Source: Salmonella phage vB_SenS-3
Length of the DNA: 64,000 bases
Direction: 5' to 3' (one strand)
Sequence record: OR896822.1
The notes beneath the pieces are model-generated. The model was not told the DNA's origin. It did no database searches and was given only the letters and a program-made list of their open reading frames with translations. Below, piece after piece: positions 131 to 45,524 of this stretch (position 1 is its first letter; each line of letters starts with the position of its first letter). The position numbers and the translations under genes are program-made.

Positions 131-2698
131 TCAAGCACCTAAAATCCTTTTCACATTATCCAGATCTTTACATACAGCAATAAACTTATCATCCTTGTAC
201 TTGCTGTGGTCTGGATGCTCTTTATCCATTGCAGCTAACTTCTTATACTCGAAATCTGCATCGAGTAATACACCCTTAACATAACGAGTATATTCATCAT
301 CATCAATACAAGCGATTGATGGGTGCTGTTTCTTCATCTTACCACAAGAGTAGTCGCGAGAACCACCTTTCTCAGAATCAGAATCAATACCGATTGGGCA
401 ACCAGGGATACTAATACCACGATCCTTCTGGATGTTACGAATCAGAATCTCGTTATACTGATCGATCAGATCTTCACGTACAATGGCAACCACGGAGTCG
501 TGAACCAACATGACGATCTTCATCTCTTTTCCTAGACCCAGTGACAGGATTTCTTCATCAGCATCAATAGCACCTAACAACAGGCTATCAGAAGATGCAG
601 ACTGAATGATTGCGTTAAATCCAGAACGGATTTCTTCACCTTGAACACCACGATCTTCGGAATGGATGTTGTGCAGACGACGCTTACGACCAAAGTGACT
701 ATAGATGAATCCAAAGTTCTTGATCTGATCGTGGCACTTATCAATCCAACGCTTAAGCTGAGGGAACTGACCGAAGTAAGTTTCGATATAGTCCTTAGCA
801 TCTGCAACGGTACATTCAACAAACGGTTCGCCTGTCTTAGCAGCCTGTTCCAGAAGAGCTTCGTTAACAGAATGAGCTACTTTCGCTGGGCCAGAACCAT
901 ACAGAATACCGAAGGTAATTGCCTTAGCAGCCTGACGCAGAGCTGGGAACAGCTTTTTAACATCACGTGGTTCACAGGTCAGTTTAAATACCATGTGTGC
1001 GATGTTTGAGTGGAAGTCAGGGTATTTATCCGGCTCATTCTTCATGTTGATAAATACTTGTTGCATGTTTCTGTCACCAGACAGTACAGCAGCGTAATAA
1101 ACTTCCGCAGTTGTTAAGTCCCATGCGATTACACGATATCCAGGGGGAGCTACTACACAACCCTTGATAATAGATTCATCACGTGGTAACTGTTGCAGGT
1201 TTAGCTTACCAGAAGAACTCAGACGACCAGAAGTAGTCATGTGTTCGTGGAAACCGGTACGAATGCAACCATCTGCATCGATGCTCAGAAGAATCTTCTC
1301 AACATAAGTAGAGATCAGCTTAGTCAGCTTACGAATCTCTAGCAGAGTTTTAGCAATCGGGTGCTGAGTAGCCAGTTCATTCAGAGCTTCTGCATTTGTA
1401 GAATCTGCACCTGTATCCGTCAGTTTACCAGTTGGAGTCAAACCAACATAATCAAACAGAAGAACACGGAGTTGCTTAACAGAGTTCGGGTTAAACGCCT
1501 CGTTCTGATTCTTCTCCAGCTGAACGACTTCTGGATAAGTATACAGCTTCTCACGAGCCATATTTAATCGATGTGTCAACTGATACTGAGCTTCTTTCAA
1601 GCGATCAACGGAAATCGGTACACCACGATCTTCAACACGTTGCAGGAATACACAACCAGGCATCAGAACTTCGTAGTATAGACTGCAAAGCTTTTCGTTC
1701 TTCTCAATTTTTGGTAAGAAGAAGTTATGCAGACGCAGAGTAGCATCGGTATCTTTTGCAGCATATGGCCACATAATATCAAAAGGAATCAGATCATAGC
1801 TGAAATCCTCTTTTTTGATCTTATGTGCCTTGCAATAATCATCCTTGAACTTATCCAGTTCAAAGTCATAATCGCCCATGTCAGTATACTTCATAGCCAG
1901 AGATTTCAAGCCGTGAGTACCACGACGTTCATCAAGAACATAGTGTTGCAACATGGTATCATGAAGTCTACGCTCTTTATGTGCTTTCTCGAAGGAAAGT
2001 CTTAGATGATAGGAGTAAAAGTGCATATCGAACTTCAAGTTATGAAAAACGATCTGATGATTCTTGCTATCCAGAATTTTCTGGAGATAATGTACAGCTA
2101 CTTCGGTAATGCTGTCAGAGTCAATATAGACACCCTGATACTCTTGGTGAGACATAGAAACACCAAGAAGATAACCATCACGAGCATACAGAGCTGAGGT
2201 TTCGGAGTCGAATGCGATAGGTCCGATAACCATGTTATACACCATCTTGATGTATTCTTCAGCTTCGTCTGGATCAGTAATAGGACGATAATCACCAGCT
2301 TTTGCAATCTTCTCACGACCATTAATAATGTCGTGAATACTTTCAACAGTAGCATCGAAAACTGGTTTCATTTCAGGTTTAAAGTGTAGCTGAGCTGGAC
2401 TAATACTTGCAATCCAGTTGGCATAGCCACCATGCTCTACACGTTTACCAGTATAATCACCGATACCTTTCTTACCTGCGAAGTACAGGAAAGGTTCAGC
2501 ACCGACTAGCACAACAAAATCGTAATCGTTCGGATCGAACGGGTTATCTGGAGTTCCGATTGTAATATGCTTTTTCAGCAAACGACCAGATAACTTCTCG
2601 TTACACATATGGAATACATCAACTTCCTCACCATAAAGCTGGAAGTGTTTATCATAACGAGTGTTATTTAGAGCTTTATCAACTACTGCAATTTTCAA
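131..2698 (-). CDS. DNA polymerase, family A (Pol I-like) with 3'-5' exonuclease domain
   Basis: 855 aa ORF; exo motif FDSETSALY; motif B RQAAKAITFGILYGSG; motif C VMLVHDSV. Confidence 0.9.
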   Translation of the reverse strand: MKIAVVDKALNNTRYDKHFQLYGEEVDVFHMCNEKLSGRLLKKHITIGTPDNPFDPNDYDFVVLVGAEPFLYFAGKKGIGDYTGKRVEHGGYANWIASISPAQLHFKPEMKPVFDATVESIHDIINGREKIAKAGDYRPITDPDEAEEYIKMVYNMVIGPIAFDSETSALYARDGYLLGVSMSHQEYQGVYIDSDSITEVAVHYLQKILDSKNHQIVFHNLKFDMHFYSYHLRLSFEKAHKERRLHDTMLQHYVLDERRGTHGLKSLAMKYTDMGDYDFELDKFKDDYCKAHKIKKEDFSYDLIPFDIMWPYAAKDTDATLRLHNFFLPKIEKNEKLCSLYYEVLMPGCVFLQRVEDRGVPISVDRLKEAQYQLTHRLNMAREKLYTYPEVVQLEKNQNEAFNPNSVKQLRVLLFDYVGLTPTGKLTDTGADSTNAEALNELATQHPIAKTLLEIRKLTKLISTYVEKILLSIDADGCIRTGFHEHMTTSGRLSSSGKLNLQQLPRDESIIKGCVVAPPGYRVIAWDLTTAEVYYAAVLSGDRNMQQVFINMKNEPDKYPDFHSNIAHMVFKLTCEPRDVKKLFPALRQAAKAITFGILYGSGPAKVAHSVNEALLEQAAKTGEPFVECTVADAKDYIETYFGQFPQLKRWIDKCHDQIKNFGFIYSHFGRKRRLHNIHSEDRGVQGEEIRSGFNAIIQSASSDSLLLGAIDADEEILSLGLGKEMKIVMLVHDSVVAIVREDLIDQYNEILIRNIQKDRGISIPGCPIGIDSDSEKGGSRDYSCGKMKKQHPSIACIDDDEYTRYVKGVLLDADFEYKKLAAMDKEHPDHSKYKDDKFIAVCKDLDNVKRILGA

Positions 2699-10378: not shown

Positions 10379-10407
10379 ATTATACAGAAAAATTTTCCTG
10401 AAAGCAA
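10379..10407 (-). promoter_or_regulatory. sigma70-type promoter
   Basis: minus-strand -35 TTGCTT, 17 bp, -10 TATAAT, conserved ATTCATAAATTTGAGAGG leader. Confidence 0.6.
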
Positions 10408-31785: not shown

Positions 31786-32235
31786 ATGAAGGCAGCTTTG
31801 CTTTTAATAGCTGCCCTAACCTATAGCTTCAATAGTCATGCTACCTACGACGCTAAACAGATTGATTGCATTGCAAAAAATGTCTATTTTGAGAGCCGAG
31901 GTGAGGGCACGAAGGGAATGGTTGCAGTTGCACAGGTCACCAAAAACCGTGTTAACTCTGGTACATTCCCGGATTCTTACTGTAAAGTAGTATATCAGTC
32001 TAACCAGTTCTCTTGGGTATCTAAGAGACCAAAAGTTGATAAAACCGATGCGGCTTGGCAAACTGCTAAGAATGTAGCTAGAGTGATATACTACGTTGAT
32101 TTACCCCATGATCCAACATATGGAGCGTTATACTTCCATAGTGGTAAAGAAAAGCCGTACTGGACGAAAACGTTCAAGAAAACAACTAAAATTCAAGGCC
32201 ACACGTTCTATAAGCCTGTGACTAAGAAAATTTAA
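31786..32235 (+). CDS. secreted SleB-like cell wall hydrolase domain protein
   Basis: signal peptide MKAALLLIAALTYSFNSHA; Hydrolase_2-like NVYFESRGEG...VAQVTKNR; ATG 31786 with RBS GGAG. Confidence 0.65.
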   Translation: MKAALLLIAALTYSFNSHATYDAKQIDCIAKNVYFESRGEGTKGMVAVAQVTKNRVNSGTFPDSYCKVVYQSNQFSWVSKRPKVDKTDAAWQTAKNVARVIYYVDLPHDPTYGALYFHSGKEKPYWTKTFKKTTKIQGHTFYKPVTKKI

Positions 32236-33444: not shown

Positions 33445-34074
33445 TAATAGTGGGGTGCCGAAACCACTTATGTAACAACACTGCCGTCCTAGTATAATAG
33501 GTATTATTAGGGCTTCACCGCCTGAAGATGTGGGTTCGAGTCCCACGGTCGGAAAGAGTTGGATAACTGGTGCTTCTAATGGCGAAGCAATCGCAGGCAG
33601 TTGCGCACTGCCAAAACCACGCGGTAGTTGGTTCCAGGCTAACCAACCACTCTTGAAAAGTATATACTACGGTTTTGCTTGTTCAGGAAGCTTCGCATCG
33701 AAAATCGGAGGTGCGATTTTATCAGACCGCGTGGAGGACGTCTCTCCGTTAAGTGACGAAAAGTGGGACGATTCAGGTAGAGCTGGATATGGAACACCTA
33801 TACATATGCGGAGTGCGCACAAAGCATATTGCGGTGGTACTAAACGAAATTAGGAGTCATGACCTGCACAAGTTTAGTATGTCATAACCGATGTACATTC
33901 AGTACAAAAACCACTGAAGCTAAGATAGATAGTCACCTTGACTTAAACTGGAAGATATTGTCTGACGGAAGGGCTGCAGAGCTTAATCTGAGGGGGCTGA
34001 CCCTACCTACCGTCGGGTATCTTTAAGAGTTCTTACGAGAACTCTTAAAGATACCTAAACATTAAGGAATACTG

Positions 34075-40251: not shown

Positions 40252-40326
40252 GCACCTATCGTCTAATGGTTAGGACATCAGGATTTCAATCTGAGAATTG
40301 AACTCCGATTCTCCGTGGGTGTGCCA
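40252..40326 (+). tRNA. tRNA-Glu (anticodon TTC)
   Basis: acceptor GCACCTA/TGGGTGT; D-stem GTCT/GGAC; anticodon stem TCAGG/TCTGA, loop ATTTCAA; atypical T-arm; CCA encoded. Confidence 0.6.
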
Positions 40327-41318: not shown

Positions 41319-41431
41319 CGGCCCGCCATATTCTATGTAGGATTAAGTAAACCGGTAGCCAACCAGCTATCATTACTGATATCGAATTCAGTCACAGATA
41401 CCATTTTTCACTAACAACTGAGGAAATAGAT

Positions 41432-42350: not shown

Positions 42351-42553
42351 AACAAATAGAGTAAAGGCTACAGTAGGTGCACCCTTACGGACTGCTACAC
42401 CGGACTCTATTCATTAACAAACATTCTAGCGTGGTGGAGAGGGGACACCAGCTGTGCGAGGGTAGAAGCTTGTTCGATTCAAGTGAAAGAATGGTTCTCG
42501 TAAATCCGCAGCAGTGATAGTAGGTTCAAGTCCTACCTAGATTGACTTATTAT

Positions 42554-42627: not shown

Positions 42628-42878
42628 AATTTAGGTTTCTGCTTCCTAGAGAACGGACTCCTAGATAAACAAGGCGATGAGTTTCCGGCCGGTTCTAGTC
42701 GCTGAAAATCCTCCCGACCAGGTAGGTGTAGGTAAACGAAAGTTTACTTATTGAGTAGGTTCCGATAGATCGGCGGATCTATTCTGGCATTTAAGAGAAG
42801 TCTCGCAAACTTCTTTGTCAGCAGAGCGTTTGAAGCGTGAGGTGGCCTACACAATAAGTAAATTTATTAAAAACTCAT

Positions 42879-43471: not shown

Positions 43472-43825
43472 ATGCAATTATCAAGCAAGATTCAAGGCTA
43501 TTTTGGTCATGTAACAATGGAGTTCGCTATCTCTAAAGGTTGGGATTTCGAGCAAGATCTAGCTGAGTTCTACAAAGATATTGATCTGAACGTACCATAC
43601 ATGGGACTCTCCACTGGTCAAGAGATCACAGAAGGCGATGTGTTCAAGGCAAGTCAAGGTGAGGTAACACCTAGTTTTGCCAAGTTCTGGTTAGGACTTA
43701 CTTTGAAGGAAGATGCACCAGAGGATGGTGTGGTTATGCAGAGTATGCACTCTGGAAGCTCTGATTACCTTTTCGTTAGCGACGTTAAGGAACTACAAGA
43801 AATCGCTAAAAATGTACTTGCTTGA
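43472..43825 (+). CDS. hypothetical protein
   Basis: ATG 43472 after RBS AAGGAA (listed ORF starts at TTG 43466); acidic protein. Confidence 0.5.
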   Translation: MQLSSKIQGYFGHVTMEFAISKGWDFEQDLAEFYKDIDLNVPYMGLSTGQEITEGDVFKASQGEVTPSFAKFWLGLTLKEDAPEDGVVMQSMHSGSSDYLFVSDVKELQEIAKNVLA

Positions 43826-43846
43826 TGCTTAATTTCTTGTTATAAT
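43818..43846 (+). promoter_or_regulatory. sigma70-type promoter overlapping the 3' end of CDS 43472..43825
   Basis: -35 TTGCTT, 17 bp, -10 TATAAT; leader then forms an 8-bp hairpin GATGAGGA/TCCTCATC. Confidence 0.55.
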
Positions 43847-44108
43847 ATTTATATAAATTGATGAGGAGAAATCCTCATCAAAGTTCACTAAGGTATTAGC
43901 TCGACCTAGGGCTGGCTGCCAAAAAGCACAATTGCAATTAGACCCCTAATGGCGGGGGATACTTTGCAATAAGTTCTAGATTAGTCCACTAGATTCAGTG
44001 GCAACTGAATAGTGTATCGGGTTTGTGAAGAGCGGTTATCCTCTACTGGCTAATGTCTGAGGGTAATACGCACACCGAGCTAATAGCCTTAGTAAACTTA
44101 AAGATTTT

Positions 44109-44187
44109 GGGGAATGGGTCTGCTTGGAGTGGACACCTCGCTTGCACCGAGGATATCAGAAGAGTTCGAATCTCTTATTCTCCACCA
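44109..44187 (+). tRNA. tRNA-Ala (anticodon TGC), copy 1
   Basis: acceptor with G3-U70 wobble pair (Ala identity element); anticodon stem CCTCG/CGAGG, loop CTTGCAC; CCA encoded. Confidence 0.65.
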
Positions 44188-44192
44188 AATTC

Positions 44193-44268
44193 GGGGTCAT
44201 AGGTTATTTGGTTAAACTTACTGCCTTGCAAGCAGTGGAACTCAGTTCAATTCTGAGTGACTCCACCA
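44193..44268 (+). tRNA. tRNA-Ala (anticodon TGC), copy 2
   Basis: acceptor GGGGTCA/TGACTCC with G3-U70; anticodon stem ACTGC/GCAGT, loop CTTGCAA; T-arm CTCAG-TTCAATT-CTGAG; CCA encoded. Confidence 0.75.
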
Positions 44269-44287
44269 AACAAATTAAGGAAATAAT

Positions 44288-44506
44288 ATGGTATTCTTAG
44301 CAGCCTCTGTAGTTCTTGCAGCTTTAGCACTAGCTATCTATTTTAGAACTATTAAAGATTTAGCTAAAGAAAAGAAAACTTTCTTTACTGATTATTCTTG
44401 GGGCGCTCCATATAACGTCCGCTTTATCAGCTTAGAAGCTATGCTGATAATGGTATTCAGTGGCATAGGTTCCATTGTTGCAGGGTTACTATTTATTTCT
44501 AACTAA
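44288..44506 (+). CDS. small membrane protein
   Basis: 72 aa with two hydrophobic helices. Confidence 0.45.
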   Translation: MVFLAASVVLAALALAIYFRTIKDLAKEKKTFFTDYSWGAPYNVRFISLEAMLIMVFSGIGSIVAGLLFISN

Positions 44507-45199: not shown

Positions 45200-45524
45200 A
45201 ATCTTGAAGTATGCCGGAATCGGTAGACGGGGCTTCCTAAAGGGCGTAAGGGGAACATCCACTCCTCATAAGATACCCGAAAACGAGGCTGAGATAACTG
45301 GTCTATCTCGTGAAGGTTCGAGTCCTTCTGCTTCTTGATATTCATCAATGGCTCAAAGTGTAACGGTGCTATTTGATGCTCTTAGTAAGACTTTCCCGAC
45401 ATGCGTTCGGGAGTAAGCTGCTAAGGCTAGAGTAGAAGAGTTTCGGAGAGCCGCCACAATTGAAGTCTTTAGAATGGGTATCGCCCTTTAGCCCCTCCGA
45501 AAGGGATAACTAGAGATTTCAATT

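What the first reader, a model, noticed from the sequence alone, without database searches (positions are those of the whole stretch)
43847..44108. Promoter followed by a hairpin in place of an RBS and about 250 nt of ORF-free sequence before tRNA-Ala
The promoter at 43818..43846 has the conserved leader, but where other copies carry the GAGAGGAA ribosome-binding site it forms an 8-bp palindrome GATGAGGA-GAAA-TCCTCATC. It is followed by structured sequence with no ORF until tRNA-Ala at 44109. This suggests a dedicated non-coding RNA or a long processed tRNA leader.
Basis: seen in the sequence. Interest (0 to 1): 0.4.

Follow-up and report, generated by a model that had tools for sequence, protein, structure and literature searches.

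The report
Phage T5 "RNA2H" stable RNA gene
The ORF-free stretch is this phage's copy of RNA2H, a roughly 200-base folded RNA of unknown function already annotated in phage T5, and comparison across related phages shows it is a conserved, pseudoknotted RNA gene cut out of a tRNA transcript.

Summary
A T5-type promoter (43818-43846) is followed by a perfect 10-bp hairpin (43858-81) that buries the leader's usual ribosome-binding site. Structured, ORF-free sequence then runs to tRNA-Ala (44109).

The window is 100% identical to Salmonella phage S113, a T5-like phage. The interval is the ortholog of T5 rna2H (T5s04). RefSeq annotates that gene as "stable RNA with unknown functions", downstream of "promoter P13b". 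The gene itself is therefore already known.

What I add:
- **Structure.** It consists of a 20-bp closing stem with a conserved 1x2 internal loop, a three-way junction, hairpins P3-P6 and two loop-linker pseudoknots. It rests on 35 of 54 pairs with compensatory changes and 97.6% pairing.
- **Distribution.** Homologs occur in six lineages of Demerecviridae.
- **Absences.** No Rfam family matches. No host homolog was found.
- **Modularity.** Upstream and downstream neighbours vary.
- **Dispensability.** Phage FFH1 carries a natural deletion of the core.

The T5-annotated ends map inside the closing stem and leave a 2-nt 3' overhang. I infer RNase III excision, with RNase P releasing the downstream tRNA. 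Function remains unknown. My best guess is an accessory, protein-binding RNA.

The parts
43818..43846 (+). T5-type early promoter (-35 TTGCTT 43818-23, 17-nt spacer, -10 TATAAT 43841-46). It is the ortholog of T5 'promoter P13b'. The predicted transcription start is about 43853 (A).
   Evidence: Sequence. Alignment to T5 and DT57C. T5 annotations. One of about 35 promoters of this type in the window. The start site is inferred by analogy with T5 promoters and was not measured.
43858..43881 (+). 5' leader hairpin UUGAUGAGGA-GAAA-UCCUCAUCAA (10 bp). It sequesters the GAGGAG Shine-Dalgarno-like sequence of the standard promoter leader. It is not part of the conserved RNA core.
   Evidence: Compensatory variants and a flipped loop in relatives. 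Absent in Klebsiella phage IME260 and in Lindwurm-type phages.
43883..43903 (+). P1 5' strand: P1a 43883-93 (11 bp), internal-loop U 43894, P1b 43895-903 (9 bp).
   Evidence: 11 of 20 P1 pairs show changes on both sides.
43894..44088 (+). Predicted mature RNA2H (195 nt), obtained by transferring the ends of the annotated T5 rna2H (172 nt). The ends lie in P1 at the 1x2 internal loop and leave a 2-nt 3' overhang (CC 44087-88).
   Evidence: T5 annotation. Alignments. BLAST of T5 rna2H starts at 43894. The overhang geometry is read from the sequence. RNase III cleavage is inferred.
43904..43907 (+). P2 5' strand ACCU, which pairs with GGGU at 44019-22.
   Evidence: Variants in other lineages: AUAC:GUAU (Klebsiella), AACU:AGUU (Proteus), ACAC:GUGU (L062), GACC:GGUC (Providencia)..
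43909..43913 (+). Pseudoknot PK1 5' strand GGGCU, which pairs with AGUCC (43982-86) in the P4 loop.
   Evidence: GGACU:AGUCC, AGYC:GRCU and GAACC:GGUUC/GGUUU in other lineages. 100% of cells paired and 3 of 5 pairs compensatory.
43917..43925 (+). Pseudoknot PK2 5' strand UGCC (43917-20), which pairs with GGCA (44000-03) in the P5 loop. It is followed by the conserved A-rich linker AAAAA (43921-25).
   Evidence: UGCC:GGCA, ACC:GGU, CGCC:GGCG and UACC:GGUA across lineages.
43926..43929 (+). P2b 5' strand GCAC, which pairs with GUGU at 44012-15 and closes the P3-P4-P5 domain.
   Evidence: ACAC:GUGU (Klebsiella) and AUGC:GCAU (Proteus). Absent in Providencia phages.
43931..43970 (+). P3, a variable-length hairpin. 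It is long here. T5 has a short UCCC..GGGA version.
   Evidence: All 4 basal pairs are compensatory. The length difference of 22-25 nt is visible.
43975..43993 (+). P4 hairpin UCUAG-AUUAGUCCA-CUAGA. Its loop forms PK1.
   Evidence: 5 of 5 pairs compensatory.
43994..44009 (+). P5 hairpin UUCAG-UGGCAA-CUGAA. Its loop forms PK2.
   Evidence: 4 of 5 pairs compensatory.
44012..44022 (+). Conserved junction GUGUAUCGGGU, carrying the 3' strands of P2b (44012-15) and P2 (44019-22).
44025..44075 (+). P6 arm. The closing pairs are GUG:CAC, directly abutting P1. The distal part is of the 'Klebsiella-like' type with loop UGGCUAAU. T5 carries a different P6 module.
   Evidence: Closing pairs are GUG:CAC, GCG:CGC or GAG:CUC. 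Window positions 165-245 of the query are about 80% identical to Klebsiella Sugarlandvirus phages.
44076..44097 (+). P1 3' strand: P1b 44076-84, internal-loop AG 44085-86, P1a 44087-97.
44099..44108 (+). 10-nt spacer UAAAGAUUUU between RNA2H and the tRNA. The 5' end of the tRNA would be made by RNase P.
   Evidence: Sequence. The RNase P step follows from established tRNA maturation and was not tested.
44109..44187 (+). tRNA-Ala(UGC), an atypical copy, co-transcribed downstream. A second tRNA-Ala lies at 44193-44268.

Best explanation
The interval encodes the S113/Epseptimavirus ortholog of phage T5 RNA2H, a discrete, highly structured non-coding RNA embedded in the early tRNA operon.

**Shown**
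- The sequence is homologous to the annotated T5 gene and sits behind the ortholog of promoter P13b.
- The conserved unit runs from 43882 to 44098.
- The fold has a 20-bp closing stem (11 bp + a 1x2 internal loop + 9 bp), a three-way junction, four hairpins (P3 to P6) and two pseudoknots. In each pseudoknot the linker after P2 pairs with the loop of P4 or P5.
- This fold is maintained by compensatory substitutions in six lineages of Demerecviridae.
- Its neighbours vary, so it is a self-contained module.

**Inferred biogenesis**
- Transcription starts about 43853.
- The 5' hairpin masks the Shine-Dalgarno sequence inherited from the promoter cassette, and may stabilise the 5' end.
- RNase III cuts the closing stem at the internal loop and releases a 195-nt RNA (43894-44088) with a 2-nt 3' overhang.
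- RNase P then frees the downstream tRNA-Ala.

**Inferred function (weakest step)**
The released RNA acts in trans as a compact protein-binding RNA with an accessory role, such as host takeover or counter-defence, rather than by base pairing. The reasoning is that its tertiary fold and the sequence of its closing stem are conserved, no conserved single-stranded 'seed' exists, and the core can be lost without killing the phage.
For: **Identity**
- The window is 100% identical to Salmonella phage S113.
- 506 phage records match the interval.
- T5 and DT57C annotate the homologous stretch as rna2H, 'stable RNA with unknown functions', after promoter P13b.
- BLAST of T5 rna2H lands at 43894.

**Structure**
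- MFE z = -7.1.
- On 26 distinct sequences, 97.6% of cells are paired against 83.4% in shuffles. 35 of 54 pairs change on both sides (0 of 500 shuffles reach this). Slid controls give 29-42% paired and at most 5 such pairs.
- With 43 sequences from six lineages, 40 of 54 pairs are compensatory and 97.8% of cells are paired.
- G-U pairs in P1 (UG at column 21 and GU at column 2) fit the + strand RNA only.

**Distribution**
- A covariance-model hit in Proteus phages (42 bits, E = 3e-12).
- P1-motif scans find Pectobacterium, Providencia and metagenomic lineages.

**Modularity**
- Upstream is either promoter plus hairpin, promoter alone, or tRNA-Lys plus a spacer.
- Downstream is tRNA-Ala, tRNA-Leu or a CDS.

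**Processing**
- The annotated T5 ends fall at the conserved 1x2 loop and leave a 2-nt 3' overhang.
- P1a is 11 bp in all 43 aligned sequences and P1b is 8-10 bp (9 bp in most lineages). The conserved base pairs are GUU/AAC and UAARG/CYUUA.

**Accessory role**
- Phage FFH1 has deleted the core between two copies of the microhomology GCTCGA yet is a viable isolate.

**Not coding**
- There is no ORF, and the length differences of 22-25 nt lie in hairpins.
Against: - No expression, end-mapping or binding data could be obtained here. The basis on which the T5 annotators set the ends is unknown to me: I found no open paper on RNA2H.
- RNase III cleavage is inferred from geometry only.
- The structural alignment was built by hand with the structure in mind. 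This inflates support for the short helices (P2, PK1, PK2).
- P2b is missing in Providencia phages, and P2 is weak in some Proteus phages.
- Nothing links the RNA to any particular protein or defence system.
- The FFH1 deletion shows dispensability but not what the RNA does.
Confidence: 0.8

Rival explanations
1. The element works only in cis as a processing and insulator module. The long P1 stem is an RNase III entry site that separates the promoter-proximal leader and upstream transcripts from the downstream tRNAs or mRNA. The excised core is a by-product with no function of its own.
For: - P1 has conserved length and sequence in all lineages.
- The element always sits inside the tRNA operon, usually just before tRNA-Ala or tRNA-Leu, or right before an RBS.
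- FFH1 lost the core but kept a perfect P1 hairpin.
Against: - A simple hairpin would be enough for RNase III.
- About 170 nt of internal structure, including two pseudoknots and conserved junction sequences, are kept by compensatory changes in six lineages. That implies selection on the core itself.
- T5 annotates the core as a stable RNA.
Confidence: 0.15
2. It is a riboswitch-like or attenuator 5' leader that senses a ligand or protein and controls expression of the genes downstream.
For: - The architecture resembles large riboswitch aptamers: a P1 closing a multi-helix junction with pseudoknots and variable peripheral hairpins.
- It lies about 8-10 nt before an RBS in several phages.
- In Proteus and Providencia phages an upstream segment could pair with the P1 5' strand as an alternative hairpin.
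Against: - There is no consistent downstream gene: tRNA-Ala of three sequence types, tRNA-Leu, or unrelated small ORFs.
- No terminator or RBS-sequestering platform overlaps P1.
- P1 is a fixed 20 bp, far more stable than switching helices usually are.
- No Rfam riboswitch matches.
Confidence: 0.04
3. The signal is a DNA-level feature: a small mobile element with terminal inverted repeats, a recombination site, or a bidirectional terminator. In that case the 5' hairpin would serve as a terminator for antisense transcription.
For: - P1 looks like a 21-bp terminal inverted repeat.
- Modules P3 and P6 are exchanged between lineages.
- On the minus strand the 5' hairpin is followed by TTTATATAAA and scores as terminator-like.
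Against: - The helices tolerate G-U pairs, which would be C-A mismatches on the other strand.
- Covariation extends to short internal helices and to loop-linker pseudoknots, which have no meaning in duplex DNA.
- There is one copy per genome at a syntenic place, and no second copy in the window.
- All neighbouring genes are on the + strand.
Confidence: 0.02
4. The interval encodes a small protein that the ORF listing missed.
For: Some database records annotate a 'hypothetical protein' over the homologous stretch, for example Stubb gene 084 on the minus strand and PMBT27, GEC_vB_N5 and Es2.
Against: - No ORF of 20 aa or more lies in about 43833-44042 in any frame.
- Relatives differ by indels of 22-25 nt and by paired substitutions that preserve helices rather than codons.
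Confidence: 0.01

Closest known systems
Phage T5 rna2H (locus tag T5s04; NC_005859 31808..31979; also AY692264 and DT57C NC_027356), 'stable RNA with unknown functions'
   Same: - Orthologous sequence, about 77% identical. The conserved core (P1, P2, P4, P5, junctions) is nearly identical.
- Same promoter (P13b) and 5' hairpin.
- Same position before tRNA-Ala and tRNA-Leu.
   Different: - The window's copy has a P3 hairpin 22 nt longer.
- It carries a different P6 module that resembles the one in Klebsiella Sugarlandvirus phages.
- The predicted mature length is 195 nt against 172 nt in T5.
- It is not annotated in the S113 record.
Other stable RNAs of phage tRNA clusters: T5 RNAI, RNAIII, RNAIV, rna1, rna2 and rna3. 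From my own knowledge and not checked here: T4 species 1 and 2 RNAs (rnaC, rnaD).
   Same: They are small stable RNAs of unknown function, encoded between tRNA genes and released from tRNA precursor transcripts. Homologs of five of the T5 RNAs are also in this window.
   Different: There is no sequence similarity to RNA2H. T5 rna1 and rna2 are annotated as tRNA-like. RNA2H is not tRNA-like and is larger and pseudoknotted.
RNase III processing stems (rRNA operon stems, T7 early-mRNA sites); comparison from established knowledge
   Same: P1 is a duplex of about two helical turns (20 bp) with an internal loop. The annotated ends are staggered by 2 nt with a 3' overhang, as RNase III products are.
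   Different: Cleavage was not demonstrated. Typical phage RNase III sites are simple hairpins of about 60 nt and do not enclose a 170-nt structured domain.
Large structured phage-associated ncRNAs next to tRNA genes (GOLLD, ROOL); comparison from my own knowledge, with membership tested against Rfam
   Same: They are ornate, phage-borne, tRNA-adjacent, and of unknown function. No protein partner is encoded next to them.
   Different: They are much larger (about 600-800 nt). No Rfam model, including these, matches RNA2H in any lineage.

Membership tests
T5 RNA2H (rna2H / T5s04) stable RNA | Full-length sequence homology to the annotated T5 gene | tested here: met
   The alignment covers the whole gene. 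BLAST of T5 rna2H starts at window 43894. The covariance model built from the family scores 240.8 bits on the window and 217.8 on T5.
T5 RNA2H (rna2H / T5s04) stable RNA | Same genomic place: downstream of promoter P13b, upstream of tRNA-Ala and tRNA-Leu in the early tRNA cluster | tested here: met
   The promoter and leader are nearly identical to T5.
T5 RNA2H (rna2H / T5s04) stable RNA | Shared secondary structure | tested here: met
   97.6% of cells paired and 35 of 54 pairs with changes on both sides. 40 of 54 with six lineages. Caveat: the alignment was fitted by hand.
T5 RNA2H (rna2H / T5s04) stable RNA | Accumulates as a discrete stable RNA in infected cells | not testable with these tools
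   Only the database annotation 'stable RNA' is available. No paper was found.
RNase III substrate | Duplex of about 20 bp or more, and product ends staggered with a 2-nt 3' overhang | tested here: met
   P1 is 11 + 9 bp. The annotated T5 ends transferred to the window (43894 and 44088) leave CC as a 3' overhang.
RNase III substrate | Cleavage by RNase III in vivo or in vitro | not testable with these tools
   This needs an rnc mutant or purified enzyme.
Any Rfam 15 family (including riboswitches, ribozymes, 6S, tmRNA, Y RNA, RNase P, GOLLD, ROOL) | Covariance-model match | tested here: not met
   Nothing reaches a gathering score. With E up to 10, only chance-level hits (snoRNA, SpF61 sRNA and group II-D5 models) touch the promoter and 5'-hairpin region, and none falls within the RNA2H core 43901-44098. 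There is no consistent hit in the Proteus, Klebsiella, EPS7, Lindwurm or bombadil copies.
tRNA or tRNA-like RNA | Cloverleaf recognised by ARAGORN or the Rfam tRNA model | tested here: not met
   No tRNA call lies in 43847-44108. The fold is a three-way junction with pseudoknots.
Riboswitch or cis-regulatory leader | A conserved regulated gene downstream and an expression platform overlapping P1 | tested here: not met
   Downstream neighbours differ: three kinds of tRNA-Ala, tRNA-Leu, or unrelated ORFs. No terminator follows P1.
Protein-coding small gene | An ORF conserved among relatives | tested here: not met
   There is no ORF of 20 aa or more in the core. The indels are 22-25 nt.
Retron msr-msd ncRNA (considered because of the long terminal inverted repeat) | Adjacent reverse transcriptase gene and a long msd hairpin | not tested
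   No reverse transcriptase is annotated in the S113 stretch around the element, but I ran no dedicated search. The internal architecture (three short hairpins plus pseudoknots) does not resemble msr-msd.

The most novel reading that the evidence does not exclude
RNA2H may be the founding member of an undescribed class of compact, double-pseudoknotted phage RNAs with an active role in the phage-host conflict. One example would be a decoy or inhibitor that binds a host RNA-targeting nuclease or immune sensor, encoded in the same tRNA 'anti-defence island' as the T5 tRNAs that counter PARIS and retron Eco7. Another would be a catalytic RNA. The evidence excludes neither. The fold is under strong selection in six lineages, matches no known family, has no host homolog, and is dispensable in at least one isolate, as accessory counter-defence genes often are.
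Probability: 0.2. Interest if true: 0.8.

Novelty: already known. Interest (0 to 1): 0.4.

Why it matters
T5 is a classical model phage, and its tRNA region is now recognised as an anti-defence island. The 'stable RNAs' in that region still carry the annotation 'unknown functions' in the current T5 RefSeq record.

This work does not discover the gene. It does turn RNA2H from an annotation line into a testable object:
- a defined, covariation-supported structure with two pseudoknots;
- a predicted RNase III/RNase P maturation path;
- a distribution across Demerecviridae that infect Escherichia, Salmonella, Klebsiella, Proteus, Providencia and Pectobacterium;
- a natural core-deletion mutant (FFH1) that can be compared with its relatives.

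It also shows that many genome records leave the locus unannotated or place spurious CDSs over it, and that Rfam lacks a model for it.

Tried and rejected
- **Rfam.** Searches at gathering and permissive thresholds on the window and on six relatives gave no family.
- **Paralog in the window, and T5 rna2 as a relative ('2H' meaning homolog of rna2?).** There is no similarity. Only the promoter leader repeats.
- **RNAalifold on a MAFFT alignment.** It predicted a CCUAGGRCU:AGUUCUAG helix that the Klebsiella sequences break. I replaced it with P4 and PK1, which covary.
- **Literature.** I found nothing on RNA2H or its function. 'Rad' of T5-like phages is a protein and is unrelated.
- **Host mimicry or origin.** There is no match in 5,426 E. 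coli genomes, and no P1-motif match in 185,579 prokaryotic genomes.
- **The P1 motif as a general processing signal elsewhere in the window.** The motif ATWGCYTTA is not enriched, and no second partner pair exists.
- **False positives.** Three AT-rich viral-contig hits of the motif scan (L050, L052, L053) were rejected because their 'P1' strands are not complementary.
- **Other Demerecviridae.** The first covariance model found nothing in 3-kb pieces around tRNA-Ala of the Pectobacterium, Aeromonas and Providencia phages. The Pectobacterium phage DU_PP_V and Providencia copies lie elsewhere in their tRNA regions and were found later.
- **Still untested.** My1, LAh_6 and the Vibrio and Aeromonas members were not searched genome-wide.

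Full report
**What is in the window**

The window is a T5-like phage. Positions 43700-44300 are 100% identical to Salmonella phage S113 (Epseptimavirus, Demerecviridae), and 507 phage records match. The finding lies inside a cluster of 28 tRNA genes, all on the + strand (S113 annotation).

**Checking the observation**

- **Promoter.** TTGCTT-N17-TATAAT at 43818-43846 is one of about 35 promoters of the same T5 early type in the window. Most are followed by the leader ATAAATTGATGAGAGG and an ATG 6-10 nt later.
- **Hairpin.** In the 43818 copy the leader continues as ...TTGATGAGGA-GAAA-TCCTCATCAA. This is a perfect 10-bp hairpin (43858-43881) that contains the Shine-Dalgarno-like GAGGAG, and no ATG follows.
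  - I expect 0.09 such hairpins by chance in 64 kb and found 3.
  - Relatives keep it through compensatory changes (GGGGA/UCCCC; GGUAA...UUACC).
  - Two metagenomic copies have the loop flipped to UUUC, so the stem matters rather than the loop or the SD sequence.
- **No ORF.** No ORF of 20 aa or more lies within about 43833-44042 on either strand.
- **Fold.** The transcript 43853-44108 folds at -94.7 kcal/mol against -62.5 +/- 4.5 for shuffles (z = -7.1).
- **tRNA-Ala.** It starts at 44109.

**Identity**

BLAST of the interval finds 506 phage records. In phage DT57C the match is annotated 'rna2H, RNA2H, stable RNA with unknown functions'. The two T5 records carry the same feature: AY692264 at 31811..31982 and RefSeq NC_005859 at 31808..31979, locus tag T5s04. 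In both it is preceded by 'promoter P13b' and followed by tRNA-Ala and tRNA-Leu.

The promoter, the hairpin and the two ends of the RNA align almost base for base between the window, T5 and DT57C. The middle differs by a 22-nt longer hairpin and by a different 3' arm. The gene is therefore known at the level of annotation. S113 and most other records leave it unannotated, and a few place a 'hypothetical protein' over it.

I found no open paper that mentions RNA2H or a function for it. No Rfam 15 family matches it in any lineage.

**Structure**

Comparison with more distant relatives gave the fold. Homologs came from five kinds of source:
- other Markadamsvirinae;
- Klebsiella Sugarlandvirus phages;
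- Proteus Novosibvirus phages, found with a covariance model at 42 bits, E = 3e-12;
- Pectobacterium phage DU_PP_V and the Providencia phage PSTCR5 and a second Providencia-type contig (L049), found by scanning for the conserved closing-stem motif;
- a further metagenomic lineage, L062.

The conserved unit is 43882-44098. It has these elements:

| Element | Window coordinates | Note |
|---|---|---|
| P1 | 43883-903 with 44076-97 | 11 bp, then a 1x2 internal loop (U / AG), then 9 bp |
| P2 | 43904-07 with 44019-22 | |
| P2b | 43926-29 with 44012-15 | Closes the P3-P4-P5 domain |
| P3 | 43931-70 | Variable length |
| P4 | 43975-93 | |
| P5 | 43994-44009 | |
| P6 | 44025-75 | |
| PK1 | GGGCU 43909-13 with AGUCC in the P4 loop | Pseudoknot |
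| PK2 | UGCC 43917-20 with GGCA in the P5 loop | Pseudoknot, followed by a conserved A-rich strand |

The statistics are as follows.
- On a 26-sequence structural alignment, 97.6% of cells form standard pairs, against 83.4% in shuffles.
- 35 of 54 pairs show changes on both sides. None of 500 shuffles reaches this.
- Sliding the partners by 1-3 columns gives 29-42% pairing and at most 5 such pairs.
- Adding the later lineages (43 sequences) gives 40 of 54 compensatory pairs and 97.8% pairing.

There are three caveats.
- I built the alignment by hand with the structure in mind, so the short helices (P2, PK1, PK2) are less secure than P1, P3, P4, P5 and the P6 closing pairs.
- P2b is absent in Providencia phages, where its 5' strand extends P3 instead.
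- P2 is weak in some Proteus phages.

G-U pairs in the helices fit only the + strand RNA.

**A module, not just a leader**

- **Upstream.** The core is preceded by promoter plus hairpin (most Markadamsvirinae, L062), by the promoter alone (Klebsiella phages), by a tRNA-Lys and a spacer with no promoter (Lindwurm type), or by other hairpins (Pectobacterium, Proteus, Providencia).
- **Downstream.** It is followed by three sequence types of tRNA-Ala, by tRNA-Leu(UAG) directly, or by an RBS and an unrelated small ORF.
- **Synteny.** The recurrent order tRNA-Val ... RNA2H, optionally tRNA-Ala or an ORF, then tRNA-Leu and tRNA-Ser suggests an old position in the tRNA operon.
- **Internal exchange.** The window's P6 arm is about 80% identical to that of Klebsiella phages, while T5 carries a different P6.

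**Biogenesis (inferred)**

- The T5-annotated ends transfer to 43894 and 44088. The 5' end is the single U of the internal loop. The 3' end lies two paired bases (CC) beyond it. The product therefore has a 9-bp terminal stem and a 2-nt 3' overhang, which is the signature of RNase III (RNase III product geometry is established knowledge).
- P1a is 11 bp in all 43 aligned sequences and P1b is 8-10 bp (9 bp in most lineages). P1a keeps GUU/AAC at its base and UAARG/CYUUA next to the loop, while the three pairs in between covary. This looks like a recognition helix.
- The 10-nt spacer and the tRNA 5' end would then be handled by RNase P.
- The 5' hairpin is removed by this cut. I read it as a device that masks the ribosome-binding site inherited with the promoter cassette, and possibly protects the primary transcript's 5' end.

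None of these steps could be tested here.

**Function**

Function is not known. Four observations constrain it.
- No single-stranded segment is conserved across lineages. The loops of P3 and P6 differ, and the loops of P4 and P5 are used in the pseudoknots. A base-pairing sRNA is therefore unlikely.
- The tertiary fold and the P1 sequence are conserved, which fits recognition by proteins.
- There is no homolog in 5,426 E. coli genomes, and no P1-motif match in 185,579 prokaryotic genomes. It is a phage invention rather than a copy of a host RNA, at least at the sequence level.
- Phage FFH1 has lost everything between P1b and the middle of P6, by deletion between two GCTCGA repeats. It keeps a perfect P1 hairpin and is a viable isolate. 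The core is therefore accessory.

The locus lies in the tRNA region that others have shown to act as an anti-defence island in T5-like phages (10.1101/2023.03.15.532788).

My best guess, at low confidence, is a trans-acting, protein-binding accessory RNA used in host takeover or counter-defence. The main rival is a purely cis-acting processing module, for which the FFH1 deletion that spares P1 is suggestive. Riboswitch, DNA-element and small-protein readings are poorly supported (see rivals).

**Verdict**

The gene is already annotated in T5 as RNA2H. What is new is the structural model, the family distribution and the processing hypothesis. Interest is moderate: an orphan, strongly structured RNA in a model phage that is now easy to test.

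Noticed in passing
window 41331-41403, 42422-42546, 42755-42853, 45203-45349, 45350-45456: The window holds homologs of five other T5 'stable RNAs of unknown function' (rna3, rna2, RNAIV, rna1, RNAI; 80-92% identity). None is annotated in the S113 record. The ORF-free gaps of the tRNA cluster are largely filled by such RNAs.
   Followed up: partly
window 44109-44187: The first tRNA-Ala(UGC) is atypical. It scores 38 bits on the Rfam tRNA model against 60 for its neighbour, and it was not among the matches listed by the whole-window gathering-threshold search. It is about 98-99% identical in unrelated large phages (Erwinia phage Cronus, Salmonella SalP219, Klebsiella phages), which suggests horizontal spread of this particular tRNA.
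   Followed up: partly
L068 (Escherichia phage FFH1, NC_024139) 536-603: FFH1 carries a natural deletion of the RNA2H core between two copies of GCTCGA. It leaves only promoter, 5' hairpin and a P1 hairpin (MFE -30.4, z = -5.1) in front of tRNA-Ala. It is a ready-made knockout for comparison.
   Followed up: yes
L040 2300-2345; L042-L045 about 340-412; L049 and L051 upstream of the RNA: In Proteus and Providencia phages the RNA is preceded by a hairpin and then by CUUUAAUUAACUU or CUUUAGUCAACUG. This is a near copy of the P1 3' strand and could form an 11-bp alternative hairpin with the P1 5' strand. I have no explanation; it could be a folding or switching element, or a remnant of a duplication.
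   Followed up: no
window 33482-33555: ARAGORN calls a tRNA with anticodon UCA ('tRNA-SeC'). The Rfam tRNA model gives it only 33 bits. It could be an opal-suppressor-like or degenerate phage tRNA.
   Followed up: no
window 40252-40323: The Rfam tRNA model matches here at 35 bits, directly after tRNA-Tyr. ARAGORN does not report it.
   Followed up: no
window, about 35 sites (e.g. 6801-, 8167-, 10407-, 30070+, 36055+, 37896+, 46649+, 49296+, 59134+): There is a large family of near-identical T5 early promoters, TTGCT-N17-(TG)TATAAT, with a conserved transcribed leader ATAAATTGATGAGAGG that supplies the RBS. The copy at 10407 (- strand) has the sequence I recall for the classical T5 P-N25 promoter.
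   Followed up: partly
L042 399-542 (Proteus phage Stubb gene 084, minus strand); also PMBT27, GEC_vB_N5 and Es2: Several deposited genomes annotate hypothetical proteins over the RNA2H homolog. These are probably spurious calls on a structured RNA gene.
   Followed up: no
L054 and L059 (metagenome contigs), leader hairpin: The loop of the 5' leader hairpin is inverted (GAAA to UUUC) while the palindromic stem is unchanged, as if the centre of the palindrome had flipped.
   Followed up: no
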